Below are positions 5,656 to 42,996 of a DNA stretch of 64,000 bases, piece after piece; the first letter of the stretch is position 1, and each line of letters begins with the position of its first letter. The stretch is from Ostreococcus lucimarinus (lineage: Eukaryota), in assembly GCA_000092065.1 (NCBI GenBank), contig CP000594.1. The stretch is one strand, 5' to 3'. The notes under the pieces are model-generated. The model saw only the letters and a program-made list of their open reading frames with translations, was not told the origin of the DNA and did not search any database. Position numbers and translations under genes: made by a program.

Positions 5656-5889
5656 TTAATACACCAAAAAGTAAATGCAATTATGGTGTTTCATTATTCC
5701 ATACGAGTACCCCAGAACGACGAGTCGTGACCCATACGGTAAAAATATCACGTCCCGCCGGTCCGGTCCCCATAGTATATAGAATTTATACAATTCAGCC
5801 CGCGTCATTACGGGGGTACAGTAATCTATGTGTCCGACATTAAACTCGATTTTTGCTAGGGTTTAGCGTCCCCGGTGTCCCGCGCGCGC
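5656..5889 (+). promoter_or_regulatory. Conserved upstream module (copy 1). It ends with 'AAACTCGATTTTTGCTAGGGTTTAGCG' about 30 bp before the first ATG.
   Basis: It shares 'catacgagtac..gacgagtcgtgac..tacggtaaaaatatcacgtcccgccggtccggtcccc..atagtatat' and the 27-bp terminal box with 19750..20125 and 36130..36585. It contains a 'gtacagtaatc' half-palindrome. Confidence 0.55.
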
Positions 5890-6366
5890 ATGCGTTGGCG
5901 CCGTCGACACTCGTCGACGCCCCGGCCCGCGGTCGTTCGCGTCCACACGGTTCAAGTAGTGCCCTTGGACGACGAACGTGCGCTTGTGCACCCTTGCGCG
6001 GATGAAGTGCGTTTCCATCGTGCGTCGCCGCCGTTCGGTCCTTTAAGGGCGACCGTAGCGCAACCGGGCGATCTCCGTGCGGACGGCGCGATGCCGGCGT
6101 ACGCATCGCAAGGAGTGCACACCGGGGGCACTGCGCCATTCGCGACGTACCGTGCAGCACAACACGCGTTTGCAACGCCAGACGGCATGCATTGGCGCGG
6201 TGGACGCAGCGTTTCATTGAAAATTGCGCGCAGCACTAGTGGGCAAAGCGGCTCGTTGGCACCCCAACGGGTCTTAAACACAATACTTGTTTTGTTCGGA
6301 TACTCGCCCAGGGATCTAGACACACGTGAGGGTAGTCGAAGGGCTAGCGTCCGGTGCCAAAAGAAC

Positions 6367-9300
6367 ATGCTCTTTGCTACGGCCACGTGGATGCTGCTAT
6401 TGCTCACGTCGTTTGTCGATGGGGCAATAGTAGACCGCGACGCTTTGAAAGTTGCAGTGGACAACTGTTTGGCGGCAAATGCCACTGGTAACTGCGATTG
6501 TAGCAGTGACTCTGTGGACTGCGGTACCGCTGGAAGTCTTCCCATCTCGCAGTGGGATACGAGCCGCGTGAACGATATGAATAGACTATTCAGCAACCAG
6601 GGTTCATTTAACGCGAATATCTCCGCGTGGGACGTGAGCGGCGTGACGGACATGACTCGAATGTTCGAGGGCGCTAATAGTTTCGCTCAGGACATCAGCT
6701 CGTGGAACGTGGTGAACGTCACGAGCATGGACACTATGTTCTATCGCGCGGATGCGTTCAACGCGCCCATCGGCAGTTGGAACACAGACGGCGTGACAAA
6801 CATGTTTCAGATGTTCCACTCAGCACATTTGTTCGATCAACCGATCGGAAGCTGGAACACGGAACGGGTGACGACCATGCAGTGTATGTTCATGTATGCG
6901 CGTGAATTCAATCAGGATATCAGCTCCTGGAACACGGCCAACGTGGTAAATATGTGGGATATGTTTTATAGTGCGGATGCGTTCAACCAGAACATTGGGT
7001 CATGGAACACAGAGGAGGTGACGGATATGAGGTACATGTTTTATAGTGCGGATGCGTTCAACCAGAACATTGGGTCATGGAACACAGAGAAGGTGACGGA
7101 TCTGAGCGGAATGTTTCAGGGCGCAGCGGCGTTCAACCAGGACATTGGCTCATGGAACACAGAGGAGGTGACAGACATGAGCGGAATGTTTCAGGGCGCA
7201 GCGGCGTTCAACCAGGACATTGGTTCATGGACGACGACGTCGGTGAAGAACATGGAGAGCATGTTCGAGGATGCGACGGCGTTCAACCAGAACATTAGCT
7301 CCTGGAACGTCAGTGCCGTCACAGACTTCGATCGGATGTTCTACACAGCGACCGCCTTCAACAAAGGCATAATCACCACGAAAACGACATGGACTGGCGC
7401 CACCGGCGCGTCCGCGACAGACATGTTCTCCGCCGCCACGGCGTGGCTGCAGAGGTATGAGTACACGACGAATCCCAGCGGAAGCGTCGTGAATGGTCCC
7501 GCGTCGGCTTGGAGTGTGAAGAAGTGTTCGTCCAATCAGTACGTTTTGAGCAACACATGCAAGGCGTGTGCCTCTGGCAAATTTCGCAGTGCTGGTGACG
7601 ACCCTGATGGCTCCAATACGGCGTGTACGTACGCGTCGCCGTTTGCTTCAAATACCCAGCTGAAAGACACGATCGAGTCTTCGTACTGCTTGGGAGGCAG
7701 CGACGCCACGGGCGCGAATTGCACGGACGGCAAGGGTATGTATATAGCGCAGTGGGATACGAGCTTGATCACGGATATGAATCACTTGTTCTACAACAAA
7801 ATTTCATTCGACGCCAATATCAGCACGTGGAACACGGCGAAAGTGACAAAAATGGATAGCATGTTTTCTCAAGCACGTGCATTTAACCAGAGGATTAATG
7901 AATGGAATACATCGAGCGTGGTGACAATGGAAGCTATGTTCCGCTACGCCGAGTCCTTTGACCAGCCCATTGGTGAGTGGAATACCGGAAGAGTCACCAA
8001 TATGAAAGACATGTTTTCGCAGGCGTCTGAATTCAATCAGAATATCGGTAATTGGGATACATCGAGTGTGACGACGATGGATACTATGTTTCGCTACACC
8101 GAGTCCTTTAACCAGCCCATTAGTGAGTGGAATACCGGAAGAGTCACCAATATGAAAGACATGTTTTCGCATGCGTACGCATTCAATCATTCAATCGGTG
8201 ACTGGAACACGGGTGCCGTGGAGAATATGGAGCTTATGTTCCAAAATACCGGCGTTTTCAACCAGGACATCAGCAGTTGGAACACGGCGGCGGTGACTCA
8301 GATGGACTCAATGTTTTACGGTGCTTCAGCCTTCAATTATGACATCACTGGTTGGAGTTCAGCAAGCCTTACGTCGTCGACGGACATGTTTCTCTCCGCG
8401 ACGGCTTGGCTGGCGAGGTACAAGAACACCGCCTCCCCAGGTAGCAAAAATGGGCCATCGTCGAACTGGCTCGGTCCCGGTCCGTTCACGACCAAGTCGG
8501 CGTTGGAGACCGCTACATGGAACTGCTTGGCGGGGAGCGCCGATGCCGATGGCAACTGCGACTGTACGACCGTCGATTGTGGCGCGGCGGTGTATGAATC
8601 GATTTCGAACTGGAACACGAGTTTGATCACGGACATGACCGGTTTGTTTGAAGGTAAGTCTTCATTCAACGCGAATATCGGCGGATGGAACACGGGGAGC
8701 GTCACAAACATGCACCAGATGTTTAACGGCGCGACTGCTTTCAACCAAGACATCGGTTCTTGGGATGTCTCGGATGTAGCGGACATGTATCAAATGTTCG
8801 GTAGCGCGTCCTCGTTCAATCAAAACATTGGGTCGTGGAACACAGGCAGTGTGACGGATATGAGCGGTATGTTCATGAATGCATCTGCGTTTAACCAGCC
8901 CGTTGGTGACTGGAACACAGGCAGCGTCGTGGATATGAGCGGCATGTTTGAGAGCGTGTCTGCGTTTAACCAGCCCATTGGTGAGTGGAATACCGGAAGA
9001 GTCACCAATATGAAAGAAATGTTTTCGCAGGCGTCTGAATTCAATCAGAATATCGGTAATTGGGATACATCGAGTGTGACGACGATGGATACTATGTTTC
9101 GCTACACCGAGTCCTTTAACCAGCCCATTAGTGAGTGGAATACCGGAAGAGTCACCAATATGAAAGACATGTTTTCGCATGCGTACGCATTCAATCATTC
9201 AATCGGTGACTGGAACACGGGTGCCGTGGAGAATATGGAGCTTATGTTCCAAAATACCGGCGTTTTCAACCAGGACATCAGCAGTTGGAACACGGCGGCG

Positions 9301-12300
9301 GTGACTCAGATGGACTCAATGTTTTACGGTGCTTCAGCCTTCAATTATGACATCACTGGTTGGAGTTCAGCAAGCCTTACGTCGTCGGCGAGCATGTTTC
9401 TCGACGCGCCGGCTTGGCTGGCGAGGTACAAGAACACCGTCGCCTCTGGTAGCAAAAATGGGCCATCGTCGAACTGGCTCGGTCCCGGTCCGTTCACGAC
9501 CAAGTCGGCGTTGGAGACCGCTACATGGAACTGCTTGGCGGGGAGCGCCGATGCCGATGGCAACTGCGACTGTACGACCGTCGATTGTGGCGCGGCGGTG
9601 TATGAATCGATTTCGAACTGGAACACGAGTTTGATCACGGACATGACCGGTTTGTTTGAAGGTAAGTCTTCATTCAACGCGAATATCGGCGGATGGAACA
9701 CGGGGAGCGTCACAAACATGCACCAGATGTTTAACGGCGCGACTGCTTTCAACCAAGACATCGGTTCTTGGGATGTCTCGGATGTAGCGGACATGTATCA
9801 AATGTTCGGTAGCGCGTCGTCGTTCAATCAAAACATTGGGTCGTGGAACACAGGCAGTGTGACGGATATGAGCGGTATGTTCATGAATGCATCTGCGTTT
9901 AACCAGCCCGTTGGTGACTGGAACACAGGCAGCGTCGTGGATATGAGCGGCATGTTTGAGAGCGTGTCTGCGTTTAACCAGCCCATTGGTGAGTGGAACA
10001 CAGGTAGCGTGGCGGATATGAACGGTATGTTCAGGAGCGCATCCGCGTTTAACGAGCCCGTTGGTGCATGGAACACAGGCAGCGTGACGGATATGAGCGG
10101 CATGTTTGAGAGCGTGTCTGCGTTTAACCAGCCCATTGGTGAGTGGAACACAGGTAGCGTGGCGGATATGAACGGTATGTTCAGGAGCGCATCCGCGTTT
10201 AACCAGCCGATTGGTGAGTGGGCCACAGGAAGCGTGGCGGATATGAGCGGCATGTTTGAGAGTGCATCCGCGTTTAACCAGCCGATTGGTGAGTGGGACA
10301 CAGACAGCGTGACGGATATGAGCAGCATGTTTGAGAGCGCGTCTGAATTCAATTATAACATCACTGATTGGAGTTCAGCTAGTCTCACGACGGACATGTT
10401 TCTCGATGCGACAGCTTGGCTGGGAAGATTTGCACGCAAAGATGGCGAAGACACCACTGATGGCCCACCATCCAAGTGGGGCGAACCGTGTGGCAATGAG
10501 TGGTACGATGCGACCTTTGAGGAGAAGTGTGAGCCAAGAGTGAACGGGATTGAAGTGAAAGGATGCAATTCTACGTGCGGGATAAAAGACAACTGGCGGT
10601 GCGACAATTTCGACTTGCTACGCCCCCCCGGTGATGACTTAGATAGCTACAATTGTACGTGCGACAACCCGGCGGGCACGTACGCATCGCCTGATCTTGA
10701 TTGTGCTCGCACAGATTGCATTTACGGCGAGCGGTGTCTCGCTAACGGCCTAGGCTGTGCGCCCGGTGCCGGTGGAAACGCATGCGACCGGTGTTTGACG
10801 GCCGCTGATATTGCCGAGCTTCCACTCAACGAACGAAGTCTCAGCAAGAATGGCTATTACAAGACTGGGCAGATGTGCACGGCTTGTCCAGAGACATCGG
10901 CTGGTCAACTTTTCGCTGCGGCTGCGGTTGTCGTCGTCCTCGCTTTTTGTGGTTTCAAAGCCTCTCAATTGATGGGCGCTCAAGCGACGAACAATTTGAA
11001 GAAAATTGTCGAGTCGCTGCAGTTCTTCTCTCTTTCGCTCAGTATGAGTATCAAGTGGCCTGGACCCGTACTCAATCTCGGTAAATATTTGGAAGCTTTC
11101 ACGTTCAGTATTGAGTTTCTACGACCCGAATGCGTCGCTACGGGGCTGAATTGGCTCAATATATTTTTGTCCTCAGTGTTTTTCGTTCCCGCTCTCATCT
11201 TCATAATCATCGTCGTGAACAATAGACGGGCGAAGCACCGTTACAAAACAACGGTGCGCGCGATCGACAGTGAACGACACGAGGATGGCGAAACAGTCTA
11301 CTGGATCAAGAAACCAGGTTTCTTGTGGGGTACGCGGAGAGCTTACGAGTCCAAGGGTGGAGATAAGATTGTTCGCGAGTTGCAGCGCCAGTATCGGTTT
11401 CGAGCCGCGCTTCGATCTTTCGGCGTACTGTCGCTGACCGTCCTATACCTTCCCATCGTGCGTATGTGCCTTCAGTCATACGATTGCATAAAGATAGACG
11501 GCGTGGATGGGCTTCGATTGGAGCATGACATAGATATCCTCTGTGAAAGCGAAGGGCACGTGATCATCCAGGCCGCCGCCGCGGTGATGTTGGCCATTGT
11601 CGGTATCGGCATGCCAATTTACGTCATAATGCAAGTTCGTAAGATCCGTTTGAGCGGTAAACTGGATGATCCACAGACTATCGACTCGTATGGTCCGTTC
11701 TACGACGTCTACCGGCGCGAGGAGCTCACACACGATCACAAATTGGAGATTGCGAGCATTCGACAAACCGCGGTCGAGTCGTCCTCATTTCGACGAGGCG
11801 AAGGCACGAGCGACGAACGTCCTTTCGATGCAGCAACTGATGATATTGCAGAAGAAATCGCAAATGAAGCCAGGGTCGATACGGAAGAAGATTCAAGCGA
11901 CGTTGATCGTGTTGACGTCGAGGACGATAGTGATACTCCACCACCTCAGAAAGTTGCATCCGGTCTCGGTAAGCTCGCTCGGGCGTTAACGATGACGAAG
12001 TCTGCTTTAGGCCGGACGACGTCAGCGAAAGCGCGCGAACGGGCACATCGAATGCACTGGAAGGACAGGTTCGCGCTTCACTACCTGGCCGTTGAACTAG
12101 TGCAGAAGAGTTGCGTCATTTTGACGACGTCTCCGCTAGTGGCCGAAACCGCGGTGAGCGGTTGGGCTCTGGTTGTCGTACACTGGTTTACCGGCGCCTT
12201 CGTCTACGTGTGTCAGCCTTGGCGCATCATGACGCTCGGCTTCGGCAAATACAAGGTGCGAAATTGCTTAAACAAAGTCGAGTCCTTGGCTGGATTTTTG

Positions 12301-12597
12301 CAGGGCGTGGGACCGTTCTTGGCGATGATCTTCCCTGTTCAGAGAAACGAGTTGGGCGAGGTGAAGCAAACTGTGACACTCTCAGCCATAACTGTCCTGC
12401 TGACCATCATAATCACCGGGCTGCTTTCTATTCGTATCATTGTTTTCGTCGGCGAACGCGTCGCCGTCAAACGAAAGAAGATGGACATTGACAAGGATCC
12501 CGAGAAATGCATGCAAAATGTTCACAAACAACTGGTCAAGCTCGCAACCAACAGAGCGATTGTGAGCATGTTGCTTTCAAGGCAGATTTCGACATAA
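6367..12597 (+). CDS. Giant DUF285-repeat (BspA-like) cell-surface protein. It has a signal peptide, about 40 DUF285 units, Cys-rich EGF-like spacers and a C-terminal multi-pass TM region.
   Basis: The ORF is open from 5875 (GTG) and the first ATG is at 5890. A clear signal peptide 'MLFATATWMLLLLTSFVDGA' begins at 6367 and was chosen as the start; an upstream start or 5' intron is not excluded. The repeat 'AFNQxIGxWNTxxVTxMxxMF' occurs throughout. At least 7 hydrophobic helices follow aa ~1680 ('AAAAVVVVLAFCGF', 'FFVPALIFIIIVV', 'VIIQAAAAVMLAIVGIGMPIYVI' and others). Confidence 0.6.
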   Translation: MLFATATWMLLLLTSFVDGAIVDRDALKVAVDNCLAANATGNCDCSSDSVDCGTAGSLPISQWDTSRVNDMNRLFSNQGSFNANISAWDVSGVTDMTRMFEGANSFAQDISSWNVVNVTSMDTMFYRADAFNAPIGSWNTDGVTNMFQMFHSAHLFDQPIGSWNTERVTTMQCMFMYAREFNQDISSWNTANVVNMWDMFYSADAFNQNIGSWNTEEVTDMRYMFYSADAFNQNIGSWNTEKVTDLSGMFQGAAAFNQDIGSWNTEEVTDMSGMFQGAAAFNQDIGSWTTTSVKNMESMFEDATAFNQNISSWNVSAVTDFDRMFYTATAFNKGIITTKTTWTGATGASATDMFSAATAWLQRYEYTTNPSGSVVNGPASAWSVKKCSSNQYVLSNTCKACASGKFRSAGDDPDGSNTACTYASPFASNTQLKDTIESSYCLGGSDATGANCTDGKGMYIAQWDTSLITDMNHLFYNKISFDANISTWNTAKVTKMDSMFSQARAFNQRINEWNTSSVVTMEAMFRYAESFDQPIGEWNTGRVTNMKDMFSQASEFNQNIGNWDTSSVTTMDTMFRYTESFNQPISEWNTGRVTNMKDMFSHAYAFNHSIGDWNTGAVENMELMFQNTGVFNQDISSWNTAAVTQMDSMFYGASAFNYDITGWSSASLTSSTDMFLSATAWLARYKNTASPGSKNGPSSNWLGPGPFTTKSALETATWNCLAGSADADGNCDCTTVDCGAAVYESISNWNTSLITDMTGLFEGKSSFNANIGGWNTGSVTNMHQMFNGATAFNQDIGSWDVSDVADMYQMFGSASSFNQNIGSWNTGSVTDMSGMFMNASAFNQPVGDWNTGSVVDMSGMFESVSAFNQPIGEWNTGRVTNMKEMFSQASEFNQNIGNWDTSSVTTMDTMFRYTESFNQPISEWNTGRVTNMKDMFSHAYAFNHSIGDWNTGAVENMELMFQNTGVFNQDISSWNTAAVTQMDSMFYGASAFNYDITGWSSASLTSSASMFLDAPAWLARYKNTVASGSKNGPSSNWLGPGPFTTKSALETATWNCLAGSADADGNCDCTTVDCGAAVYESISNWNTSLITDMTGLFEGKSSFNANIGGWNTGSVTNMHQMFNGATAFNQDIGSWDVSDVADMYQMFGSASSFNQNIGSWNTGSVTDMSGMFMNASAFNQPVGDWNTGSVVDMSGMFESVSAFNQPIGEWNTGSVADMNGMFRSASAFNEPVGAWNTGSVTDMSGMFESVSAFNQPIGEWNTGSVADMNGMFRSASAFNQPIGEWATGSVADMSGMFESASAFNQPIGEWDTDSVTDMSSMFESASEFNYNITDWSSASLTTDMFLDATAWLGRFARKDGEDTTDGPPSKWGEPCGNEWYDATFEEKCEPRVNGIEVKGCNSTCGIKDNWRCDNFDLLRPPGDDLDSYNCTCDNPAGTYASPDLDCARTDCIYGERCLANGLGCAPGAGGNACDRCLTAADIAELPLNERSLSKNGYYKTGQMCTACPETSAGQLFAAAAVVVVLAFCGFKASQLMGAQATNNLKKIVESLQFFSLSLSMSIKWPGPVLNLGKYLEAFTFSIEFLRPECVATGLNWLNIFLSSVFFVPALIFIIIVVNNRRAKHRYKTTVRAIDSERHEDGETVYWIKKPGFLWGTRRAYESKGGDKIVRELQRQYRFRAALRSFGVLSLTVLYLPIVRMCLQSYDCIKIDGVDGLRLEHDIDILCESEGHVIIQAAAAVMLAIVGIGMPIYVIMQVRKIRLSGKLDDPQTIDSYGPFYDVYRREELTHDHKLEIASIRQTAVESSSFRRGEGTSDERPFDAATDDIAEEIANEARVDTEEDSSDVDRVDVEDDSDTPPPQKVASGLGKLARALTMTKSALGRTTSAKARERAHRMHWKDRFALHYLAVELVQKSCVILTTSPLVAETAVSGWALVVVHWFTGAFVYVCQPWRIMTLGFGKYKVRNCLNKVESLAGFLQGVGPFLAMIFPVQRNELGEVKQTVTLSAITVLLTIIITGLLSIRIIVFVGERVAVKRKKMDIDKDPEKCMQNVHKQLVKLATNRAIVSMLLSRQIST
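7962..9977 (+). repeat. Near-perfect 2 x 1008-bp in-frame tandem duplication inside the DUF285 gene (336 aa each)
   Basis: ORF-track artefacts 8321..8626 and 9329..9634 are identical in length and about 98% identical. The nucleotide text 7962–8969 repeats at 8970–9977. Smaller 126/252-bp DUF285 unit repeats follow to about 10330. Confidence 0.85.
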
Positions 12598-12641
12598 AGC
12601 GCCGTAAAGCACGCGCGAGGCTGGAAGATACCCGCCAAGCG

Positions 12642-14883: not shown

Positions 14884-14912
14884 AGGTTATAGGTTATATA
14901 GGTTATAGGTTT
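14884..14912. repeat. Short (aggttat)n-like microsatellite
   Basis: 'aggttataggttatataggttataggttt' read directly. Confidence 0.5.
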
Positions 14913-35400: not shown

Positions 35401-35908
35401 AAGCGAGAAGATCTGGAAACGCAACCATTTTCCCCTTGTGCGCCTTCCACTTGGCCTTGGAGTGCACACTCTTCTTGCGATAAAAATCACTCTCCGCCGC
35501 TCGTTGTAACCCGAATCCGCGACCGACCAAAGTACAGAAGTCCGTGGTCAGATCCTTCTTGAAACCCGCGCAGGCGAACCCTTTCGCGTCGCACTCGCGT
35601 TCACACGCGTCGAAAGACTCATAAGTCTCCATCAGGTTACTCCCGACTGGAATGCGGCTTCCGTGCCACCAATAATTTGTTAAATCATCCTCCAACGACC
35701 CAAGAGCGGCTTCGGGAACGTTCACGCCCGCTTTTTTCATGGCGCGCCCCAAGCGTCCTTCGGGAACGCACCAAGCATATGCCGTTCGACCGTGAATTCC
35801 GATTAACACGAACGTAGCGACGAGGATGAACGCGGCCGAGTTCCACCCAATCCATCTATCGCGCGTTCTTGTTCTTCTCGTCGTCATCGGTGCGTCAACG
35901 CCCGTCAT
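20438..35908 (-). CDS. Giant (5156 aa) mosaic cell-surface protein. It combines an N-terminal signal anchor, kringle/FN2-like and PAN-like Cys modules, TSP1 repeats, acidic and coiled-coil tandem repeats, a C-terminal DUF285 array and a C-terminal TM.
   Basis: Single uninterrupted ORF. TSP1 signatures are '[25 protein letters not shown]' and '[24 protein letters not shown]'. A kringle/FN2-like module is 'CVFPFTTDY...[17 protein letters not shown]'. DUF285 units are '[34 protein letters not shown]' and others in the last ~1300 aa. TM segments are '[14 protein letters not shown]' (N-terminal) and '[17 protein letters not shown]' (C-terminal). Confidence 0.6.
   Translation of the reverse strand: [5156 protein letters not shown]
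24560..25045 (-). repeat. 3 x 162-bp coding tandem repeat (54-aa unit '...[46 protein letters not shown]')
   Basis: Visible in the ORF translation and in the antisense ORF 24450..25052. Confidence 0.8.
25065..25650 (-). repeat. 5 x 114-bp coding tandem repeat (38-aa acidic unit '[38 protein letters not shown]')
   Basis: Visible in the ORF translation. The antisense ORFs 25060..25803 and 25073..25909 are repeat artefacts. Confidence 0.8.
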
Positions 35909-36129: not shown

Positions 36130-36585
36130 CGCGTGTAAAGGCAGACACTTTATATAGCACTTTGGGAGGTTAAAAGGTGTCCCAAAGTCTCATACATTGG
36201 CCTATACTTTGGCAACATCCCGCGCTTTGATTACAGTACAGTAATATAACCCCCGCCAATGCGCGGGATGAATGGCATACATTCCATAGTATATGGGGAC
36301 CGGACCGGCGGGACGTGTGATTTTTACCGTATGGGTCACGACTCGTCATTCGGAGTACTCGTATGGAATAATGAAACACCATAACTGCATTTACTTTTTG
36401 GTTCATTAAAAAAACCGTACGGGCATTTACTGCAGAATTGGCCACTTTTCGCGCGGGTTTCACTGGACACGTGTCAAAAACGTGGCTTTTCTGAAACTCG
36501 ATTTTTGCTAGGGTTTAGCGTCTCAGTGTCCCGACGGAGATACAGTGCGGGGATCCCGTCGGCAGCACTCTCCGTCGCGCACGCA
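36130..36585. promoter_or_regulatory. Bidirectional intergenic region between the two giant genes. It carries module copy 3, TATA-like 'ctatataaag', a hairpin 'ctttggg..ggttaaaa..cccaaag', a palindrome 'ttacagtacagtaa', and the 27-bp box 60 bp before ATG 36586.
   Basis: Read directly. The module sequence is conserved with 5656..5889 and 19750..20125. Confidence 0.55.
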
Positions 36586-39500
36586 ATGTCGAAGAAATCT
36601 GATCCACTGTATGTACCAGTCAACACGTGTGAAGACGACACAGTCGGTCTTCTTCGGACGATCGATGAAGTTCAAGTAGACGAGGGTGAAACCAACGTTA
36701 CTTCGCCCGAAGATAATAATTGTGACGGCGGCGTTCGAGTAGTAGACATGGTTGGGTTGATACGGAACGGGCTGCATGCGCGGAGGTGCGCGAGCAGACG
36801 ACGGTCCACCGCGATCATCCACGTTTTGTTAACTGTCGTTCTGGCAAGTTTTTTGCGTTCGACCTTGGCGTTTGAAAGGACAGATGGGTTTCAAGGCGAG
36901 CTTGAAGATACCGCACACGAAGGACCGGGAGCATCAAGGAGTTCGGTGGCGAACGAAACCGCGGCGCTGGGGTGTGCATGGGGGATACCTTGTCCGCCAG
37001 TGGCTCAGGCGGTGGTGGATGTCGTGTCAGATCCACATGGTGCTGCCGAAGATGCTGCGAACCTGGCTGGAGATGGACTCAATAGTGCTGTAGATGCAGC
37101 AGCGGCTGGGGCAACATTTTTGTACGATCAAGGGACGGCAGCCGCGAGCGCAGCAGCGGCAGCGGCGACAGAGTTGGCGTCGGCTGGATTTGAATTCGCC
37201 AAGGGTGCGGCCACAAGCGCATACGCGATGGGTTGCTCCGCGGCGGCGATGGCTTGGAACACGGCGACGGCGGTCTATGACCGTATGAGCGACCCAGAAA
37301 AATTTTTGTCAGACATGATTGACAGCTTTCCCACATCTTTGGGGGATTTGAAGTCGCTTTCGGGCAAGGCACTCGCAGTCGGTGGAGAAGCCTTCGTGGA
37401 GATGAATGCGAATAATCCCGTTGGACGCCAAGCGCTCGCTGCTGTCAAAAAGGCAAACGAAATCGGCGGCAAGTACGGTTTCGAGAACCTTCAGAAATTC
37501 ACCGCTGTGGGCGCGTCGTTGACGAATCGCGTTATCCCCGGCGGTGGCATAATTTTTGAAGCCGTGGACGTCGTCGGTGAAACGGCGCAAGATGCTGTGG
37601 ATACTGCGATTCTCATCGTGGAGTCTATGCTCAACGCTCTTGAGTGCAAAGTGTCGCCAGTCGATGTTATGGAGGTGATACAAAAAGTTGTCATCGAACA
37701 AATATCAAGCTGGAATGCGTTTGCGAAAATGTTCGAGGAGAAGAAGGGGACTGACTTCTTCTACAAACTCGATCATGTCATCTGCAATACTCTTTGGACA
37801 GTGGCTATGCCGCATGCGGACTTGATGGTGACGGCGATTGGCGTCCTCCTGGAAAAAGTCCAAGCCACTTGTCCAGGAGTTATCCCAGCGGATTCCAAAC
37901 CAGCAGCTACGCTGGGGTTGATTTTTGACGCGTCTGTAAAAGGGGGCTCAATGAAAGGTGTATCTGCTGAGGTTGGCATCGGTGCTGACATTGATGGGAA
38001 CAAATTTTGCTATTTCGGCTCCTGCGCTTACGCAGGTATATCGTTTGGTGGCTACGGTGCTGATGGGACGATGTTGGCGGGACTCAGTGTTTGGAAGTCT
38101 ATGGATTCAGTTCCGGGCACCTCGAGTACATTTGCGTTCGCGGCCGATATCACCATGCCATTACTCCCCTCGTTTGATCCCGGAGTCACGTTCGTTTCAA
38201 ACGACGCCGGGCTCATCGGCATCAGTGTCTCAAAAGAAATCCCCGGCGGCGACGAACCAAGTGGTGAATTTTCGGTCACGAAAGGGCGATGCGTAACGCC
38301 TGTTTGTGTCAAGACAGATGGTAATCCTTGTGGTGAGGGTCAGGCTGCTTGGTCCGACGTGGGCTCGCATGCGACTGCTGCAGTGGAGGCGATCAAGACG
38401 GATGAGTGCATAGTTGCTGGTGCCGGTGTGATTGAACAAAATGGTGGAATTTCCGTGAGTCGAGAAATCCGGTTACCGGCGTCTGGGGTGAACCTTCTTG
38501 CCGATGCTGAGGCAAACCCGACGGGAATGAAGAATTTTAAGCCCTCAAGCGTGAGGATTCCTGAGGGTAAATTCTTACTTGCGTTTACCGGTGGTGATGA
38601 AGCATTTAAGGGGAGCGAGACAGTGATTCGTAGCTATAAGTCAAAACTCAACAACCGTTTGTATTCAATGACGTCCTTTGTCGTTTCTGACATTGCAGCC
38701 GAGTTTCACGAAGAAGCGCCAAAATCAGTTGGCCCAGAACATGCTGGTTCAATCAGTAAATGTAAAGCGATGTGCGCGGTGAAGAAACACTGCTGCAATA
38801 CGGATGAATCCATCGGAAGTAACCAGTATCTAAGCTGCCTACAGGCATGCGTCGTCCGCGTGCGTGGAACCGACGAGCGGACATGTAACTCTTACTGTGC
38901 ATCTGCAACGACTTCTCGTCACATTAATGGTTACATGTACAACCTCGCAACATCTTGCGCTGATGTCGTTGCATCCGAAGGAAAGTTATGTTCTACTCGG
39001 TACGGTAGCGATCGTTCAACCTGCCTATACGGTTGTTCGATCGGACGCGACCCCGAACAATCGCTCGCAGTCGTCAAATCCACTGGATTCTATATGCAAC
39101 TTCCTGCGGCACATGTTACCCCCAGGTCGACGAATAATTTGCGCGATCGGACGTTGAGTAGTGTGATTGTTCGAGCCGGGTTTGTTGTTAAACTGTACGC
39201 CGGGCGCGACCTGAAAGGTCAATACCTGACGCTCGGGAGTTCGGCGACGCTGTATGGTAACCATGCGAGGTTCTATTCATCCTTACGCGGATCATTCCCG
39301 AACACGAAGTTTGCCTGGGCAAATTTCAATGACAGAACTCGGAGCATCGCCATCTTGGAGGCGCCTGTGACGCTTTATACGCAACCCAATTTCCATGGCG
39401 ATCATGAATCAAAACTTGAGCATGCATTTGACTACACCAGTCTCGGTCCGACAGTCGGGGACAGGCATGTTAATTCCATCTTTCTAAGAGAAGGATCTGT

Positions 39501-42500
39501 GGTTGAAGTATACGAGGGACGCAGTTTCAACGGTCGAGGCATGCAGTTCATATCCAGCGTATCAGATGTCCGCCGCGCAACTGAATCCATCGGTGACCTT
39601 TCTAGACCGACATGGCAAAGAGTTTATGGAACTGCAAGTATGGTTGACGCGGGTCGTGAAGAAGTATATAGTATTCACGCAGATGACGTCGCAAATACAA
39701 AGCCAGTTGATAATTCTGGTGACTGGTCGGACTTTTTGACACTGAAGTGGAGTCATATTTCTGTTGGGCCCACAGGCCATGTATGGGCGATTCGTAAACC
39801 TTACGGCAACGCTTATCACTGCATGCCACATCAAACCTCTTGCAAGACCAAATGGGAGTATACCAGGCTCACCCAGCTGGATGCTGGAAGTTTGTACGTT
39901 TGGGGGGTGACGTACTCGGGATACGTATACAGGCATCTCGTGAACACACACGAGGGTTCATGGACACGTGTAAATGCGCCAGATACGATGAAGCATATCT
40001 CAATAGGCCCAAGTGGCGATGTCTGGGCGGTATCGACGACGAATAAAGTATATTTCTGCGTGCATCCGTGTACTGGATCGTGGCGTGTCATCGGCGCATC
40101 CGCACCCGTAAAACGTCTCATATTTACTGTGAACAATGACAAATATATGGCTCGTGTCGATTTGAAGACTGACGGTAGTATTAATTTCAACGCTGGTCAT
40201 AAAGTAGCTGGCTGGTTGAGTCTAAGCGGAATCACGTACGCCACGAGCGGTCTCAACTATCTTTCCCTAAACTCGCGTTATTGGGAACATTATAGTGGCA
40301 TGAATGGCTACTGGTCGCCAGCCCAATACTCGTGCTCGAACGGCCTCGTTTCTGTGACTGGGCTCGTGAAGACAAAAAATCATGGCTGGGGGCAGGTCAT
40401 CGGTACTCTCCCGTCAGGGTGTCGTCCGACGAAAGCACTCATCTTCACCACGAATAACCACGATGAGCAGGCGCGAGTGAACGTATACGCCGACGGGACG
40501 ATCAAATGGGGTGCCGGCGGCAAGGGTCACGGATGGTTGAGCCTAAGTAACATTGTCTTTTCGACCAGTGGCAACGCGCTTTTACCTCTGAGCAATGGTT
40601 GGGCGCACTACAGTGGCACGAGTGGCTACTGGTCGCCTGCTGAGTACTCGTGCGCCGACGGCCTCGTGGTCTTGAGTGGATTAGTACGCGGTAGTAACTG
40701 GGGTTCTACTATCGGCACTCTTCCTCCGGGTTGTCGTCCGAAACAAGCTCTCATCTTCACCACGAACAACAGCGATAAGCAAGCGCGAGTGAACGTGTCA
40801 CCGGGGGGGGTGATCAAATGGTCACGTGGTGGCAAGGGCCACGGTTGGTTGAGCCTGAGCGGCATCGTATTTGCAATGACTGGGCTGCAGTTGATGCCTC
40901 TGAGCAACGGTTGGAAGTACTATAACGGCGCGAGAACGAGCGGGTATTGGGCACCCGCACAGGTCGCGTCTGTGCGCGGCCTCACCGTTGCTCAAGGCCT
41001 TATCAAAGGCGGTGGATGGGGTGGAACAATGGCAAAAATTACCGGTGGATGCGGATATATGAGTGATTTAATGTCCCTGACTAAGAAGAACGCGGGTCAA
41101 CATAGCACAGCACATAATGGCGTTGCAAGCCGCCCGTTGACGTCGACTCCAAATGGGCGCTGGGGGGGTGGCACGTGCACGCACACGAATCATGCGTCCG
41201 ACCCATGGTGGCGACTTGATATGGGGACGACGAGGACCTTGAGTTCGGTGGAGTTGTTGAATCGCAACGACTGCTGCAGTGACCGCTTTATCGGCCTCCG
41301 CGTCTACATCAGCAATCATAACTCCTACGTAAAGGATCATCCGAGTAACAAACAGTGCGGGCAGACGTTGGGATCGCCGAATACTGCCTGGAATATATTC
41401 GACTGCGGCGATGCCATCTCTGGGCGCTACGTATACGCCACCCTATATGGTAAAGCAGCACCGTTAACTATCTGCGGTGTCAGGATGTTCGAATCAAATA
41501 CGATGATAAAGCAGCTGGACGTTGGAAAGCGCTATGTTTACGGAACCAGTACGAATGGTCATCTTTTTAAAATCCGTGCCGATGGGGGCGAGGATAACTG
41601 GTCCCTCGTACATCGTTATAGCGAATTCGGCGGTATTGATGCCAATTATGTTTCAGTCTCACCGCATTCCGAACAATCGTCGTTCCTGTGGGTTACAAAC
41701 CAAGCGAACGAAATTTATCGCCAATCCATCGGAATACAAATCTCTTCCATGAGAGTCGCCTCGGCAATCGTAACTGCTTACAAAGGTGTGGGATTTACCG
41801 GTGATAGTCTGCCCCTGACTTCCGGTTTTTATAACTTTAAGACGCTCGAGGCAGACTCAGACGCCGGATTTAAGCTCACGAACCTCAGAGCGTTTGTGCG
41901 AAGCATCAAGTCTATAAGGATCCATCCAGACTACGAGGTTGAGCTGCGCGGTTATAATCAAGCACGAGCAGTCGTCACCTCTAGTACAATGGGAGTACAC
42001 GATTTTCATAAACTGGACACAGAGGGCAAGGAACACGAAGAGAATATAGTTGGAGCTACAAGATTTCCGCGACCGAGCGGTGTCTCACGCAAATCGACGT
42101 TTATGCCAATCGAAGCAACTACGCTAGGAACATGGATCCAAACACGAACTGCCAACGTTTACGTGATGTCAGATCTATCAGCCACCCCAAGTGCTCTCAT
42201 TAGGTACATTGCTGCGTACGGCGATGCAGAATATTGCAAAATGATCATGTTTCACGTGCGTCACGGCGATGAAGTCTCTGTTGTGCCTGAGGAGGCTGGA
42301 TATGCGACTTTTGGCATCAGAGATGCGTCTTCCGACAAGTGTCAGAATCGCGACGGTGTACTATCGCTCTGGCGTATAAAGCAAACTCCGAGATTGGCGC
42401 GCCGCGCGACAGATGCAGGCTACGGCATCGGAAAGTTGAAATTCTCGATTTTGGGAGGCTGGACGGGAGAAATAGCCTCAATGAAAGTGATGAGAAAACT

Positions 42501-42996
42501 CACTTATGTCCAAGGGTACTCCGGTGGCCGTCATCGTAATGAGGGAGGAAATCCAAAACGGACTCCACGAGAATGTCGGGACATCGCTAAAAGCAAGGGT
42601 TTACCTGCCTGGGGATTTCGAACCGGCCGTCATAATGATCCTAACTGGCGGTTTACGTGCTTCTTTTATGAGCACGGATTTGGGAGATTTGCGGGTAATG
42701 ATGACACAATGCATATGACAGGATGCGTCGATATATCCCGAAAGACCGCAAATGGCTGCGCACTGAGCGCATCAGCCAGCGCGCGGTTGGGTTCTGAAGA
42801 CTTAGAGACTTACCCTCGCGCGATGGCGAGACCAAAGGCGAGACTGCTAGAATCAGACTGGTACTATATCTCTGTCTGCTGTGTTCTCGTCAGCCTAGCG
42901 TCTGTGGTAGCGTTCGTCGCATTTCGACGCTCGCGAACGTCGGGCAAACGCATTCTACTTGAACGAGTCTCAACGAACTACGGTGCCACAATTTAA
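36586..42996 (+). CDS. Giant (2137 aa) lectin-like surface protein with a signal anchor, beta-gamma-crystallin-like and tectonin-like repeats, 3 x 105-aa repeats, a fucolectin/F5-8-type-C-like domain and a C-terminal TM
   Basis: The ORF is open from 36505 (TTG) and the first ATG is at 36586 ('MSKKSDPLYV'). The TM is 'AIIHVLLTVVLASFL'. Tectonin-like units are 'HISVGPTGHVWAIRK' and 'HISIGPSGDVWAVSTTNKVYFC'. The FTP/discoidin-like block is 'WWRLDMGTTRTLSSVELLNRNDCCSDRFIGLRVYISN...GRYVYATLYGKAAPLTICGVRMF'. The C-terminal TM is 'YYISVCCVLVSLASVVAFVAF'. Confidence 0.55.
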   Translation: MSKKSDPLYVPVNTCEDDTVGLLRTIDEVQVDEGETNVTSPEDNNCDGGVRVVDMVGLIRNGLHARRCASRRRSTAIIHVLLTVVLASFLRSTLAFERTDGFQGELEDTAHEGPGASRSSVANETAALGCAWGIPCPPVAQAVVDVVSDPHGAAEDAANLAGDGLNSAVDAAAAGATFLYDQGTAAASAAAAAATELASAGFEFAKGAATSAYAMGCSAAAMAWNTATAVYDRMSDPEKFLSDMIDSFPTSLGDLKSLSGKALAVGGEAFVEMNANNPVGRQALAAVKKANEIGGKYGFENLQKFTAVGASLTNRVIPGGGIIFEAVDVVGETAQDAVDTAILIVESMLNALECKVSPVDVMEVIQKVVIEQISSWNAFAKMFEEKKGTDFFYKLDHVICNTLWTVAMPHADLMVTAIGVLLEKVQATCPGVIPADSKPAATLGLIFDASVKGGSMKGVSAEVGIGADIDGNKFCYFGSCAYAGISFGGYGADGTMLAGLSVWKSMDSVPGTSSTFAFAADITMPLLPSFDPGVTFVSNDAGLIGISVSKEIPGGDEPSGEFSVTKGRCVTPVCVKTDGNPCGEGQAAWSDVGSHATAAVEAIKTDECIVAGAGVIEQNGGISVSREIRLPASGVNLLADAEANPTGMKNFKPSSVRIPEGKFLLAFTGGDEAFKGSETVIRSYKSKLNNRLYSMTSFVVSDIAAEFHEEAPKSVGPEHAGSISKCKAMCAVKKHCCNTDESIGSNQYLSCLQACVVRVRGTDERTCNSYCASATTSRHINGYMYNLATSCADVVASEGKLCSTRYGSDRSTCLYGCSIGRDPEQSLAVVKSTGFYMQLPAAHVTPRSTNNLRDRTLSSVIVRAGFVVKLYAGRDLKGQYLTLGSSATLYGNHARFYSSLRGSFPNTKFAWANFNDRTRSIAILEAPVTLYTQPNFHGDHESKLEHAFDYTSLGPTVGDRHVNSIFLREGSVVEVYEGRSFNGRGMQFISSVSDVRRATESIGDLSRPTWQRVYGTASMVDAGREEVYSIHADDVANTKPVDNSGDWSDFLTLKWSHISVGPTGHVWAIRKPYGNAYHCMPHQTSCKTKWEYTRLTQLDAGSLYVWGVTYSGYVYRHLVNTHEGSWTRVNAPDTMKHISIGPSGDVWAVSTTNKVYFCVHPCTGSWRVIGASAPVKRLIFTVNNDKYMARVDLKTDGSINFNAGHKVAGWLSLSGITYATSGLNYLSLNSRYWEHYSGMNGYWSPAQYSCSNGLVSVTGLVKTKNHGWGQVIGTLPSGCRPTKALIFTTNNHDEQARVNVYADGTIKWGAGGKGHGWLSLSNIVFSTSGNALLPLSNGWAHYSGTSGYWSPAEYSCADGLVVLSGLVRGSNWGSTIGTLPPGCRPKQALIFTTNNSDKQARVNVSPGGVIKWSRGGKGHGWLSLSGIVFAMTGLQLMPLSNGWKYYNGARTSGYWAPAQVASVRGLTVAQGLIKGGGWGGTMAKITGGCGYMSDLMSLTKKNAGQHSTAHNGVASRPLTSTPNGRWGGGTCTHTNHASDPWWRLDMGTTRTLSSVELLNRNDCCSDRFIGLRVYISNHNSYVKDHPSNKQCGQTLGSPNTAWNIFDCGDAISGRYVYATLYGKAAPLTICGVRMFESNTMIKQLDVGKRYVYGTSTNGHLFKIRADGGEDNWSLVHRYSEFGGIDANYVSVSPHSEQSSFLWVTNQANEIYRQSIGIQISSMRVASAIVTAYKGVGFTGDSLPLTSGFYNFKTLEADSDAGFKLTNLRAFVRSIKSIRIHPDYEVELRGYNQARAVVTSSTMGVHDFHKLDTEGKEHEENIVGATRFPRPSGVSRKSTFMPIEATTLGTWIQTRTANVYVMSDLSATPSALIRYIAAYGDAEYCKMIMFHVRHGDEVSVVPEEAGYATFGIRDASSDKCQNRDGVLSLWRIKQTPRLARRATDAGYGIGKLKFSILGGWTGEIASMKVMRKLTYVQGYSGGRHRNEGGNPKRTPRECRDIAKSKGLPAWGFRTGRHNDPNWRFTCFFYEHGFGRFAGNDDTMHMTGCVDISRKTANGCALSASASARLGSEDLETYPRAMARPKARLLESDWYYISVCCVLVSLASVVAFVAFRRSRTSGKRILLERVSTNYGATI
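40110..41060 (+). repeat. 3 x ~315-bp coding tandem repeats (105-aa unit 'ALIFTTNN..ARVNV..G.IKW..GGKGHGWLSLS.IVF...G..L.PLSNGW.HYSG.SGYWSPA.YSC..GLV...GLV')
   Basis: Visible in the translation. Confidence 0.7.

What the first reader, a model, noticed from the sequence alone, without database searches (positions are those of the whole stretch)
5875..42996. Cluster of three giant, apparently intron-less genes for mosaic surface adhesin- or lectin-like proteins. Two carry long arrays of the bacterial-type DUF285 repeat.
The genes 6367..12597 (+), 20438..35908 (-) and 36586..42996 (+) encode proteins of 2077, 5156 and 2137 aa in single ORFs. All have an N-terminal signal peptide or anchor and a C-terminal TM segment or segments. 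DUF285 ('Mycoplasma lipoprotein'/BspA-type) units are best known from Mollicutes and Firmicutes surface proteins. To my recollection they are also expanded in some marine algae. Here they are combined with eukaryotic adhesion modules (TSP1, kringle/FN2-like, PAN-like, EGF-like) in one gene. A second gene combines tectonin, beta-gamma-crystallin-like and fucolectin-like lectin modules. Such genes often mediate cell-cell or cell-virus recognition. Their co-location with active mobile elements in an AT-richer region suggests a fast-evolving surface-protein island.
Basis: partly seen in the sequence, partly recalled or inferred. Interest (0 to 1): 0.6.

Follow-up and report, generated by a model that had tools for sequence, protein, structure and literature searches.

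The report
Three giant algal surface-protein genes
Three very large genes in the tiny marine alga Ostreococcus lucimarinus encode membrane-anchored proteins built from binding modules (LRR-like DUF285 arrays, thrombospondin repeats, fucose lectin, tectonin); they are real but sit in an already published genome and belong to protein families shared with related algae.

Summary
The window is Ostreococcus lucimarinus CCE9901, and the three uninterrupted ORFs exist. Pfam confirms DUF285 arrays in genes 1 and 2. It confirms TSP1 in gene 2 and one borderline PAN. It confirms tectonin, an F-type lectin and a borderline beta/gamma-crystallin in gene 3. EGF is not supported, and FN2/kringle only weakly.

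Corrections:
- Gene 1 really ends at 14399. A 99.8%-identical metagenome contig carries one extra T at about 12571, which fuses it to the next ORF (about 2,677 aa).
- Gene 1 is not a simple adhesin. It has four capped LRR-like DUF285 blocks, a Cys-rich stalk, a multi-pass membrane module distantly related to fungal Pkd2/Flc (PF06011), and a roughly 600-aa helical cytoplasmic tail.
- Genes 1 and 2 belong to old Mamiellales families. Homologues occur in Micromonas pusilla and O. mediterraneus, some among housekeeping genes.
- Those homologues are also AT-richer than their flanks, so low GC does not prove an imported island.
- Gene 3 has no detectable relative outside its own cluster.

The interleaved mobile elements encode a PrimPol-helicase and a GIY-YIG nuclease. 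DUF285/PARCEL proteins in Ostreococcus were described in 2010.

Verdict: new members of a known kind, of moderate interest.

The parts
6367..14399 (+). Gene 1, corrected model (about 2,677 aa). The reference sequence lacks one T at about 12571, so it reads as two ORFs: 6367..12597 and 12507..14399.
   Evidence: Metagenome contig L013 is 99.78% identical over window 11412-15004 and shows a single gap, ATGTTTGC against ATGTTGC. Proteins P0102 and P0103 (99% identical) and P0101 read through the site.
6439..10491 (+). Gene 1 ectodomain: four capped DUF285 blocks (aa 25-385, 420-705, 706-1040, 1041-1375). Each has a Cys-containing N-cap, 25-aa repeats and a C-cap of the form ...AW..Y...NGPxSxW.
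   Evidence: Pfam PF03382 at 1419 bits. The AF2 model of block 3 has pLDDT 85.9 and pTM 0.85, with one short strand per repeat. All 50 top Foldseek PDB hits are LRR solenoids, but none is significant (E>=0.017). A 1,008-nt tandem duplication (7957-8990 against 8965-9998) is 98.7% identical.
10492..12570 (+). Gene 1 Cys-rich stalk followed by a multi-pass membrane module with an acidic loop insert.
   Evidence: TM segments are. phmmer against 1.84 billion representatives gave 204 hits. Among distant members, 7/30 hit PF06011 TRP, 11/30 hit DUF7630 and 7/30 hit Ephrin_rec_like. hhalign against PF06011-positive proteins gave probability 99.8% and E 9e-29. The AF2 model has pLDDT 80.8. No solved fold matches it. 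Gene 1 itself has no direct Pfam hit here.
12573..14399 (+). Gene 1 cytoplasmic tail of 608 aa, rich in charged residues plus Ala and Leu. It is probably helical or coiled-coil.
   Evidence: Translation and composition: 55-67% E/K/R/Q/D/A/L. The tail is conserved in P0100, P0101 and P0104. No Pfam hit.
20438..35908 (-). Gene 2 (5,156 aa), a type I membrane protein. It has a signal peptide or signal anchor at aa 20-38 (35795-35851) and a TM segment at aa 5106-5124 (20537-20593).
   Evidence: Collinear with P0108-P0111 at 30-37% identity over aa 67-3265. The P0108 and P0111 clusters contain Micromonas pusilla CCMP1545 proteins.
28073..29263 (-). Gene 2 cluster of TSP1 repeats (aa 2216-2510) followed by a PAN/apple domain (aa 2548-2612). 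A further TSP1 repeat lies at 34772-34930 (aa 327-379).
   Evidence: TSP1_ADAMTS at 71.9 bits in 4 stretches; PAN_1 at 22.6 bits against a cut-off of 21.4.
34919..35161 (-). Gene 2 aa 250-330: a possible FN2/kringle-like Cys module (GAPCVFPFT...WCYT...WGY..C).
   Evidence: No Pfam hit. The top PDB sequence hits are all FN2 modules or kringles, at E 0.002-0.5. Support is weak.
24551..25773 (-). Gene 2 low-complexity stalk: a 162-nt x3 array (Pro/Ser-rich plus basic helix) and a 114-nt x6 array (acidic, SPSPSP), nearly identical within each array.
   Evidence: the repeat finder families D3 and D6; 98-99% identity.
20609..24406 (-). Gene 2 membrane-proximal DUF285 region: at least 4-5 capped blocks, more degenerate than those of gene 1.
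   Evidence: PF03382 at 544 bits in 8 stretches. Cap motifs are and alignment A3.
36586..42996 (+). Gene 3 (2,136 aa; XP_001421296.1 / UniRef A4S7M0). It has an N-terminal hydrophobic segment at aa 76-94 and a TM segment at aa 2095-2113.
   Evidence: Exact match to the NCBI protein. Among 5.8 billion proteins, only its own 90% cluster was found. Seven metagenome contigs are 99.8-99.99% identical. No relative was found in IMG/VR.
39319..41502 (+). Gene 3 lectin core. In order: beta/gamma-crystallin-like region (about aa 912-939), tectonin (aa 1018-1169), three unassigned repeats of about 105 aa (about aa 1170-1500), and an F-type fucose lectin (aa about 1501-1639).
   Evidence: Pfam results. 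PDB matches: 3cqo at E 1e-30 and 1k12 at E 4e-15. The motif H-x26-R-x-D-x4-R, with the vicinal Cys pair (..THT..NRNDCCSDR..), can be read.
14767..18558 (-). Mobile element copy B: a PrimPol + SF3/D5-like helicase ORF (16183..18393) and a GIY-YIG ORF (15262..15759).
   Evidence: Pfam Prim-Pol and DUF5906; PHROGs DNA primase, E 5e-31. The UniRef name is 'GIY-YIG domain-containing', and the motif VY-x11-YIG..R..H is visible. The same unit occurs at 96% identity in 8 long metagenome contigs.
43389..47116 (-). Mobile element copy C (ORFs 44501..46711 and 43266..44075). Copy A is rearranged, at 1667-3095 (inverted) and 4335-5657.
   Evidence: Self-comparison shows 94-97% identity.
36229..36409 (-). 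Repeat of about 150 nt in the divergent gene 2 / gene 3 promoter region. Further copies lie at 5656-5817 (+, about 550 nt upstream of gene 1) and 19881-20029 (+, downstream of gene 2).
   Evidence: No Rfam match. Function unknown.

Best explanation
The locus encodes three giant, cysteine-rich glycoproteins displayed on the plasma membrane of a wall-less, scale-less picoalga. They serve multivalent recognition of external ligands: glycans and proteins on other cells, particles or viruses.

Gene 1 is receptor-like. Four LRR-like DUF285 solenoids sit on a Cys-rich stalk. The stalk connects to a polytopic membrane module of the superfamily that includes fungal Pkd2/Flc (Pfam PF06011). A helical cytoplasmic tail of about 600 aa follows. 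This is the same overall layout as fission-yeast Pkd2 (signal peptide, ectodomain, TM module, cytoplasmic coiled coil). I therefore infer that ligand binding or force on the ectodomain is transmitted across the membrane.

Gene 2 is a type I protein. Its 3,400-aa distal ectodomain (TSP1, PAN, unknown regions) is held away from the membrane by repeat stalks and DUF285 blocks.

Gene 3 is a lectin array (tectonin, F-type fucose lectin with an intact binding triad, crystallin-like and unassigned repeats) with a C-terminal TM anchor.

Shown: the ORFs, the domains, the TM segments, the homologues, and transcription of a gene 1 homologue in O. mediterraneus. Inferred: surface location, the ligands, signalling, and any role in mating, adhesion or virus interaction.
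For: - ORFs and the organism are established.
- Domain hits lie above curated cut-offs.
- F-type lectin homology to solved fucolectins is strong, and the binding motif is intact.
- Signal/anchor and TM segments are present.
- The DUF285 block model is an LRR-like solenoid.
- The gene 1 membrane module links to PF06011-positive proteins and gives a confident helical-bundle model.
- The Pkd2 layout comes from PMC6727746, and its stretch-activated Ca2+ permeability from PMC9727806.
- The intact gene 1 reads through into a conserved tail.
- Homologues of genes 1 and 2 occur in O. mediterraneus (MMETSP transcripts, complete ORFs) and M. pusilla. JGI labels several of them 'surface protein'. They lie among ordinary nuclear genes.
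Against: - There are no expression, localisation or binding data for these three genes.
- Gene 1 carries a frameshift in the reference, so it may be inactive in strain CCE9901.
- Gene 1's membrane module has no direct Pfam hit and no match to any solved channel fold. The 'channel' idea rests on distant, transitive homology to a family whose own mechanism is unsettled.
- The LRR-like similarity of DUF285 is not statistically significant (best E 0.017, TM<=0.33).
- Large parts remain unassigned: gene 3 aa 95-900, gene 2 aa 700-2200 and 2620-3400.
Confidence: 0.65

Rival explanations
1. The locus is a virus-interaction locus. The proteins would act as prasinovirus receptors, decoys or shields. 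The island would be a second hypervariable 'immunity/recognition' region, remodelled by the PrimPol-helicase/GIY-YIG elements in the way the small outlier chromosome is remodelled.
For: - Recently active element copies flank each gene.
- Recent internal duplications are present.
- Gene 3 has no detectable homologue elsewhere.
- One metagenome contig (L001) joins gene 3 to a different upstream neighbour.
- DUF285 arrays also occur in giant algal viruses.
- Surface changes and SOC rearrangements underlie virus resistance in Ostreococcus (titles and abstracts listed).
Against: - No experimental link exists.
- Seven metagenome contigs of gene 3 are 99.8-99.99% identical to the reference, so the gene is not hypervariable in sequence.
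- The ferritin-side junction is the same in many samples.
- Homologues of genes 1 and 2 sit in stable housekeeping contexts in other species.
- L001 is a single contig.
Confidence: 0.15
2. The proteins are gamete or cell-cell recognition (agglutinin-like) proteins used in the cryptic sexual cycle.
For: - The architecture (giant ectodomain plus lectins) resembles sexual agglutinins and the sperm REJ/polycystin-1 receptors (my own knowledge).
- Mamiellales have mating types and evidence of sex (PMC7016971).
Against: - The locus is not on chromosome 2, where the mating-type region lies. It lies on a 708,927-bp chromosome whose right-hand flank, within the window, is normal-GC housekeeping DNA.
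- No mating-type-specific presence or absence has been shown.
Confidence: 0.1
3. The whole region of about 47 kb is a horizontally acquired or virus-derived island, and the giant genes are its cargo.
For: - GC is 51.7% against 60% next door.
- The PrimPol-helicase + GIY-YIG pair recalls virophage/PLV replication modules (PMC3671162 and PMC4642659, listed).
- Roeske et al. proposed HGT for PARCEL ORFs.
Against: - Gene 2 is collinear with M. pusilla proteins, and gene 1 has an O. mediterraneus homologue in housekeeping surroundings.
- Those homologues are AT-richer than their flanks as well.
- The ORFs scanned show no capsid, integrase or packaging genes.
- No close viral relatives of gene 3 or of the element were found.
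Confidence: 0.07
4. The genes are decaying or non-functional: long ORFs kept by chance in a repeat-rich region.
For: - The reference carries a frameshift in gene 1.
- The region has a high density of mobile elements.
Against: - ORFs of 5,156 and 2,136 codons without stops cannot persist without selection.
- Wild sequences of gene 1 are intact.
- Conserved cysteines and motifs are shared with homologues at 30-60% identity.
Confidence: 0.03

Closest known systems
PARCEL / DUF285 (PF03382) membrane proteins of Mollicutes, marine bacteria, diatoms and Mamiellales (Roeske et al. 2010, PMC2996958)
   Same: Both have tandem 25-aa repeats well above the Pfam cut-off, predicted to lie outside the membrane on mono- or polytopic proteins. 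The paper inventories O. lucimarinus ORFs; its chromosome 14 has two, and the paired O. tauri chromosome has none. It suggests mobilisation near transposons.
   Different: Here the repeats form discrete capped blocks. They are fused to eukaryotic modules (TSP1, PAN) or to a PF06011-like membrane module with a long cytoplasmic tail. That paper did not describe these architectures, the frameshift, or the Micromonas and O. mediterraneus homologues.
Fungal Pkd2 / Flc1-3 'TRP-like' proteins (Pfam PF06011)
   Same: Both share the order signal peptide, ectodomain, multi-pass membrane module, helical cytoplasmic tail. The gene 1 module aligns with PF06011-positive proteins (hhalign probability 99.8%).
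   Different: Gene 1 itself does not hit PF06011. Its ectodomain is DUF285 plus a Cys-rich stalk, not an ML-like domain. A large acidic loop is inserted. Channel or transport activity is untested, and no solved structure exists for comparison.
TSP1/PAN adhesins of apicomplexans (TRAP/MIC families) and metazoan thrombospondin-repeat proteins
   Same: These are also type I membrane proteins that combine TSP1 and PAN/apple modules with a short cytoplasmic tail.
   Different: Gene 2 is about ten times larger. No vWA/integrin-I domain was detected in it. It carries DUF285 blocks and tandem-repeat stalks, and most of its ectodomain is unassigned. It comes from a free-living green alga.
F-type lectins (eel agglutinin 1k12, striped bass FBP32 3cqo) and tectonins
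   Same: The gene 3 domain matches FBP32 at E 1e-30 and keeps the His/Arg/Arg fucose-binding motif and the vicinal Cys pair. The tectonin propeller scores above the cut-off.
   Different: In gene 3 these are single modules embedded in a 2,136-aa membrane-anchored mosaic, together with unassigned repeats. No other protein with this combination was found.
Polycystin-1 / sea-urchin REJ and adhesion GPCRs (analogy only)
   Same: All have a giant adhesive or lectin ectodomain joined to a multi-pass membrane domain.
Small and big outlier chromosomes of Mamiellales (low-GC, hypervariable, linked to virus resistance or mating type)
   Same: The region shares their lower GC, transposable elements and surface-related genes.
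   Different: It lies beside normal-GC housekeeping genes on a 709-kb chromosome. No evidence of population-level hypervariability was found beyond one variant contig.

Membership tests
DUF285 / PARCEL (PF03382) | Tandem repeats of about 25 residues scoring above the Pfam gathering cut-off (25 bits) | tested here: met
   Gene 1: 1419 bits in 13 stretches. Gene 2: 544 bits in 8 stretches.
DUF285 / PARCEL (PF03382) | Palindromic character of the coding DNA (the PARCEL definition of Roeske et al.) | not tested
   No palindrome analysis was run on these repeats.
Leucine-rich-repeat solenoid fold (for DUF285 blocks) | Significant structural match to solved LRR proteins | tested here: inconclusive
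   AF2 model pLDDT 85.9. All 50 top Foldseek hits are LRR proteins, but the best is E 0.017 with TM<=0.33.
Thrombospondin type 1 repeat | Pfam TSP1_ADAMTS/TSP_1 above cut-off, with W..W/CSxxCG-type motifs | tested here: met
   71.9 bits against a cut-off of 23.8, in 4 stretches. Motifs such as FTSCSKSCGGGVRIRR are visible.
PAN/apple | Pfam PAN_1 above cut-off (21.4 bits) | tested here: met
   One copy at 22.6 bits (aa 2548-2612). Two others at 16-17 bits fall below the cut-off. The result is borderline.
FN2 / kringle | Pfam fn2 or Kringle hit, or a significant match to solved modules | tested here: inconclusive
   No Pfam hit at E<=1. PDB phmmer: MMP-2 FN2 at E 0.002, kringles at E 0.02-0.5.
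EGF-like | A Pfam EGF-family hit | tested here: not met
   None at E<=1 in any segment. Homologues of the gene 1 stalk hit Ephrin_rec_like or DUF7630 instead.
F-type lectin (fucolectin) | Homology to solved F-type lectins plus the H-x26-R-x-D-x4-R/K fucose-binding motif | tested here: met
   3cqo at E 1e-30 and 1k12 at E 4e-15. F5_F8_type_C_2 at 53 bits. The motif THT...NRNDCCSDR was read. The motif definition is from my own knowledge.
Tectonin | Pfam PF19193 above cut-off (30 bits) | tested here: met
   55.9 bits, aa 1018-1169.
Beta/gamma-crystallin | Pfam PF00030 above cut-off (25 bits) with a significant stretch | tested here: inconclusive
   25.1-27.2 bits for the whole protein, but no single stretch passes.
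Pkd2/Flc 'TRP-like' family (PF06011) | Direct match of the protein to PF06011 above cut-off (28.5 bits) | tested here: not met
   No Pfam hit for gene 1 aa 1340-2076 at E<=1.
Pkd2/Flc 'TRP-like' family (PF06011) | Profile-level homology to proteins that do match PF06011 | tested here: met
   7 of 30 aligned relatives hit PF06011 (best E 1e-9). hhalign of the Ostreococcus family against three of them: probability 99.8%, E 9e-29, 287 columns.
Pkd2/Flc 'TRP-like' family (PF06011) | Ca2+-permeable, stretch-activated channel activity | not testable with these tools
   Needs reconstitution or electrophysiology. No solved structure of the family was found for comparison.
Canonical TRP / polycystin channels, adhesion GPCRs | 6-TM channel or 7-TM GPCR fold; GPS/GAIN or PKD_channel domains | tested here: not met
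Polinton-like virus / virophage (for the flanking elements) | Capsid (MCP, penton), packaging ATPase and protease genes alongside the replication module | tested here: not met
   Only the PrimPol-helicase and GIY-YIG ORFs were recognised. Other ORFs in and between the elements gave no Pfam or PHROGs hits. The closest IMG/VR relative is 26% identical.
Mamiellales outlier chromosome (BOC/SOC) | Location on the species' chromosome 2 low-GC region or on chromosome 18 | not testable with these tools
   The record is a 708,927-bp chromosome whose number is not given. The accession order and the Roeske table suggest chromosome 14; this is inference. The right-hand flank is 60% GC housekeeping DNA.

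The most novel reading that the evidence does not exclude
Two unproven readings remain open.

1. The DUF285 + Cys-stalk + PF06011-like + coiled-coil family (gene 1 and its Mamiellales relatives) could be a previously unrecognised class of algal surface receptor-channels. An LRR-like ectodomain would gate a Pkd2-like membrane module.

2. The PrimPol-helicase/GIY-YIG units of about 3.4-3.8 kb that bracket the three genes could be an undescribed class of capsid-less, self-replicating eukaryotic DNA element. They would reshuffle this recognition-gene locus and so alter virus or mate recognition.
Probability: 0.12. Interest if true: 0.7.

Novelty: new member of a known kind. Interest (0 to 1): 0.38.

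Why it matters
Ostreococcus is a naked cell of about 1 micrometre with a 13-Mb genome. Even so, it spends about 30 kb on three surface proteins. These are prime candidates for the molecules that viruses, mates, bacteria and grazers first touch, and no receptor for a prasinovirus is known to me.

The corrected gene 1 model, and its link to the Pkd2/Flc superfamily, gives a concrete, testable receptor hypothesis in a genetically tractable group. O. tauri and O. mediterraneus have related genes.

The practical gain is modest. It amounts to better gene models, domain maps and a list of homologues for genes so far labelled 'predicted protein'.

Tried and rejected
- PDB sequence searches found nothing for a DUF285 block, for the gene 3 N-terminal 810 aa, or for gene 2 aa 2579-3400.
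- Relaxed Pfam scans assigned nothing to the gene 1 tail, the gene 3 N-terminus or the middle of gene 2.
- IMG/VR scans found no viral relative of gene 3 and only a 26%-identical relative of the PrimPol-helicase. The DUF285 hits in giant-virus MAGs share only the repeat motif (33-42% identity).
- Rfam found nothing in the window, including the 150-nt repeat.
- Exact look-ups of the element proteins with my chosen start codons failed.
- I first thought contig L001 carried gene 2's N-terminus. That was my own error: I searched a file holding several loci.
- I first read the element as having one precise and one ragged end. A wider comparison showed that copy B and the metagenome copies share both ends (14767 and about 18558), while copies A and C carry a different 3' extension. 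I found no terminal inverted repeats or target-site duplications and make no claim about the transposition mechanism.
- The O. lucimarinus genome paper (PMC1863510) is not held in the library.

Full report
**Identity of the window.** Seven ORF products from the window are exact matches to proteins in the public collection. Four of them carry an Ostreococcus lucimarinus CCE9901 accession on a 708,927-bp record, for example ABO99584 and ABO99774. Gene 3 is XP_001421296.1, a 2,136-aa 'predicted protein' that UniRef names 'Fucolectin tachylectin-4 pentraxin-1 domain-containing protein'. Window 1-47600 is 51.7% GC and 50000-64000 is 60.0%. The right flank holds ordinary genes: ferritin, an ABCF ATPase and a MIF4G protein.

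**The observation.** The three long ORFs are present at the stated coordinates.
- Gene 1: DUF285 at 1419 bits.
- Gene 2: DUF285 at 544 bits in the C-terminal half, TSP1_ADAMTS at 72 bits in four stretches, and one PAN_1 just above cut-off in the N-terminal part.
- Gene 3: Tectonin, F5/8-type-C (NedA-like) and a borderline Crystall hit.
- The gene 3 lectin domain matches the solved F-type lectins FBP32 (E 1e-30) and eel agglutinin (E 4e-15). It keeps the H-x26-R-x-D-x4-R motif with the vicinal Cys pair (read; the motif definition is from my own knowledge).
- EGF is not supported.
- The FN2/kringle idea has only weak support. All the best PDB hits of gene 2 aa 250-330 are FN2 modules or kringles, but at E 0.002-0.5.
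- A hydropathy scan finds strong hydrophobic segments near the N-terminus of genes 2 and 3, a single C-terminal TM in each, and at least five strong TM segments in gene 1. Gene 1's short N-terminal signal-like segment (MLFATATWMLLLLTSFVDG, read) falls below that scan's threshold.

**Gene 1 is longer than stated, and is not a simple adhesin.**
- Homologues of its C-terminal part continue beyond the reference stop.
- A JGI metagenome contig (L013) is 99.78% identical over window 11412-15004. It differs by a single extra T at about 12571, which joins 6367..12597 to the ORF 12507..14399. The intact protein is about 2,677 aa. Whether the reference deletion is a sequencing error or a strain mutation cannot be decided here.
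- The ectodomain consists of four discrete capped DUF285 blocks. One block of 1,008 nt was duplicated recently, at 98.7% identity.
- An AlphaFold model of one block is confident (pLDDT 85.9). It shows one short strand per 25-residue repeat. All top PDB matches are LRR solenoids, but none is significant.
- Downstream lie a Cys-rich stalk and a multi-helix membrane module.
- A full HMMER search of 1.84 billion representatives found 204 relatives. These are typically the C-terminal part of very large proteins with other ectodomains (FG-GAP, Kelch).
- Among 30 aligned relatives, 11 hit DUF7630, 7 hit Ephrin_rec_like and 7 hit PF06011 'TRP'.
- hhalign links the Ostreococcus family to PF06011-positive proteins at 99.8% probability. 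Gene 1 itself gives no direct Pfam hit.
- The module models confidently (pLDDT 80.8), but no solved structure resembles it.
- PF06011 covers fungal Flc proteins and fission-yeast Pkd2. Pkd2 has the layout signal peptide, ectodomain, TM domain, cytoplasmic coiled coil (PMC6727746). It shows stretch-activated Ca2+ permeability (PMC9727806). Gene 1 has the same layout, with a 608-aa charged, helical-looking tail. I infer a receptor-like role, but this is not shown.

**Gene 2.** It is a type I protein.
- Residues 67-3265 are collinear, at 30-37% identity, with four metagenome protein clusters.
- Two of those clusters contain Micromonas pusilla CCMP1545 proteins. One cluster (P0108, 5,351 aa) has the same TSP1/PAN + DUF285 architecture.
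- P0111 lies among photolyase, RRM, eIF3 and aspartyl-protease genes. The architecture is therefore old within Mamiellales.
- Between the distal ectodomain and the DUF285 blocks lie two near-identical tandem arrays, 114 nt x6 and 162 nt x3.

**Gene 3.**
- Among 5.8 billion proteins, only its own 90% cluster was recovered. The word prefilter may miss remote relatives.
- No IMG/VR relative was found.
- Seven metagenome contigs are 99.8-99.99% identical. The gene is therefore conserved in wild populations.
- One contig (L001) has 4.6 kb of different sequence upstream, in place of gene 2. It includes a 626-aa ORF that is 31% identical to gene 3 aa 367-582. This hints at structural variation, but it is a single contig.

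**Gene 1 homologues elsewhere.** The P0106 cluster is O. mediterraneus. It includes complete MMETSP transcripts identical to metagenome ORFs. That homologue is therefore transcribed and intron-free, and it lies among housekeeping genes.

**Is this an imported island?** Probably not. The homologous giant genes are AT-richer than their own flanks in three other genomes:
- 64.4% against 67.5-70.4%
- 54.1% against 63.3%
- 52.5% against 56-60%

Low GC therefore seems to be a property of these genes.

**Mobile elements.** The region does carry three copies of a unit of about 3.4-3.8 kb, 94-97% identical.
- The unit encodes a PrimPol + SF3 helicase and a small GIY-YIG protein.
- The 90% clusters of the two proteins hold 601 and 898 sequences.
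- The same unit occurs at 96% identity in eight long metagenome contigs. These share a constant flank on one side and have differing flanks on the other.
- I found no capsid or integrase genes, no terminal repeats and no close viral relative.

**Prior knowledge.** Roeske et al. 2010 (PMC2996958) defined PARCEL/DUF285 repeats. They listed O. lucimarinus and O. tauri ORFs by chromosome and membrane topology. They noted differences between paired chromosomes and speculated on transposon-aided dispersal. DUF285 proteins also abound in the Aureococcus virus. I found no paper describing these three genes, the DUF285-PF06011-like architecture or the PrimPol/GIY-YIG unit. The library is incomplete, however.

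**Verdict.** The finding is real and mostly well read, and it concerns annotated genes of a genome published in 2007.
- My additions are a corrected gene 1 model, evidence that gene 1 is a polytopic receptor-like protein of a wider superfamily, evidence that genes 1 and 2 are ancient Mamiellales families, and a characterisation of the flanking element.
- Function remains inferred.
- I rate it as new members of a known kind, with interest about 0.38.

Noticed in passing
window 14767-18558 (-), 43389-47116 (-), 1667-3095 (+) and 4335-5657; loci L018-L025: A repeated unit of about 3.4-3.8 kb encodes a PrimPol + SF3/D5-like helicase (733 aa) and a GIY-YIG protein (165 aa). The three copies here are 94-97% identical. 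Eight long Ostreococcus-like metagenome contigs carry it at 96% identity, with a constant flank on one side and differing flanks on the other. Near its 3' end is the hairpin GTTGGGG-N2-CCCCAAC followed by an A-run. No capsid or integrase genes, terminal inverted repeats or target-site duplications were found. It may be an undescribed type of eukaryotic DNA element.
   Followed up: partly
window 12571: The reference lacks one T in a TTT run compared with a 99.8%-identical metagenome contig. This splits gene 1 into two ORFs. It is either a sequencing error or a strain-specific frameshift.
   Followed up: yes
window 5656-5817 (+), 19881-20029 (+), 36229-36409 (-): A conserved repeat of about 150 nt (86-92% identical) lies upstream of gene 1 and, in the same relative orientation, upstream of gene 2 in the divergent gene 2 / gene 3 promoter region. 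A third copy lies downstream of gene 2. It has no Rfam match and its function is unknown. Metagenome contigs often break at it.
   Followed up: partly
locus L001 1-4831 against window 36220: One metagenome contig joins gene 3 (99.8% identical) to 4.6 kb of different upstream sequence in place of gene 2. That sequence includes a 626-aa ORF that is 31% identical to gene 3 aa 367-582. This may be a structural variant or a second locus.
   Followed up: partly
window 47296-47643 (-): A 115-aa ORF next to the ferritin gene has a C-terminal Cys-rich, metallothionein-like stretch (CCPKDCDACGPDKCACPDATTCKSCGCTSCACPSCECKNSCSKCIDNCCC). It has no Pfam hit. Part of it recurs at the end of L001.
   Followed up: no
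window 7957-9998; 24551-25773: Recent internal duplications are present. Gene 1 has a 1,008-nt unit (one DUF285 block) at 98.7% identity. Gene 2 has 114-nt x6 and 162-nt x3 arrays at 98-99% identity. These are likely sites of length polymorphism.
   Followed up: partly
loci L009, L011, L012: Homologous giant genes in Micromonas-like and other Ostreococcus contigs are 3-9 GC points below their flanking genes. The AT shift therefore follows the gene family across species.
   Followed up: partly
window 20438-20536 and 42925-42996: The short cytoplasmic tails of genes 2 and 3 both end with a basic stretch and then ..Y-G-[SA]-T-[LI].. near the C-terminus. This may be a shared sorting signal, or it may be chance.
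   Followed up: no
window 56000-58000: GC rises to 71% over 2 kb, where long ORFs overlap on both strands (55772..57031 +, 56133..57371 -, and the start of 57186..60143 +). Not examined.
   Followed up: no
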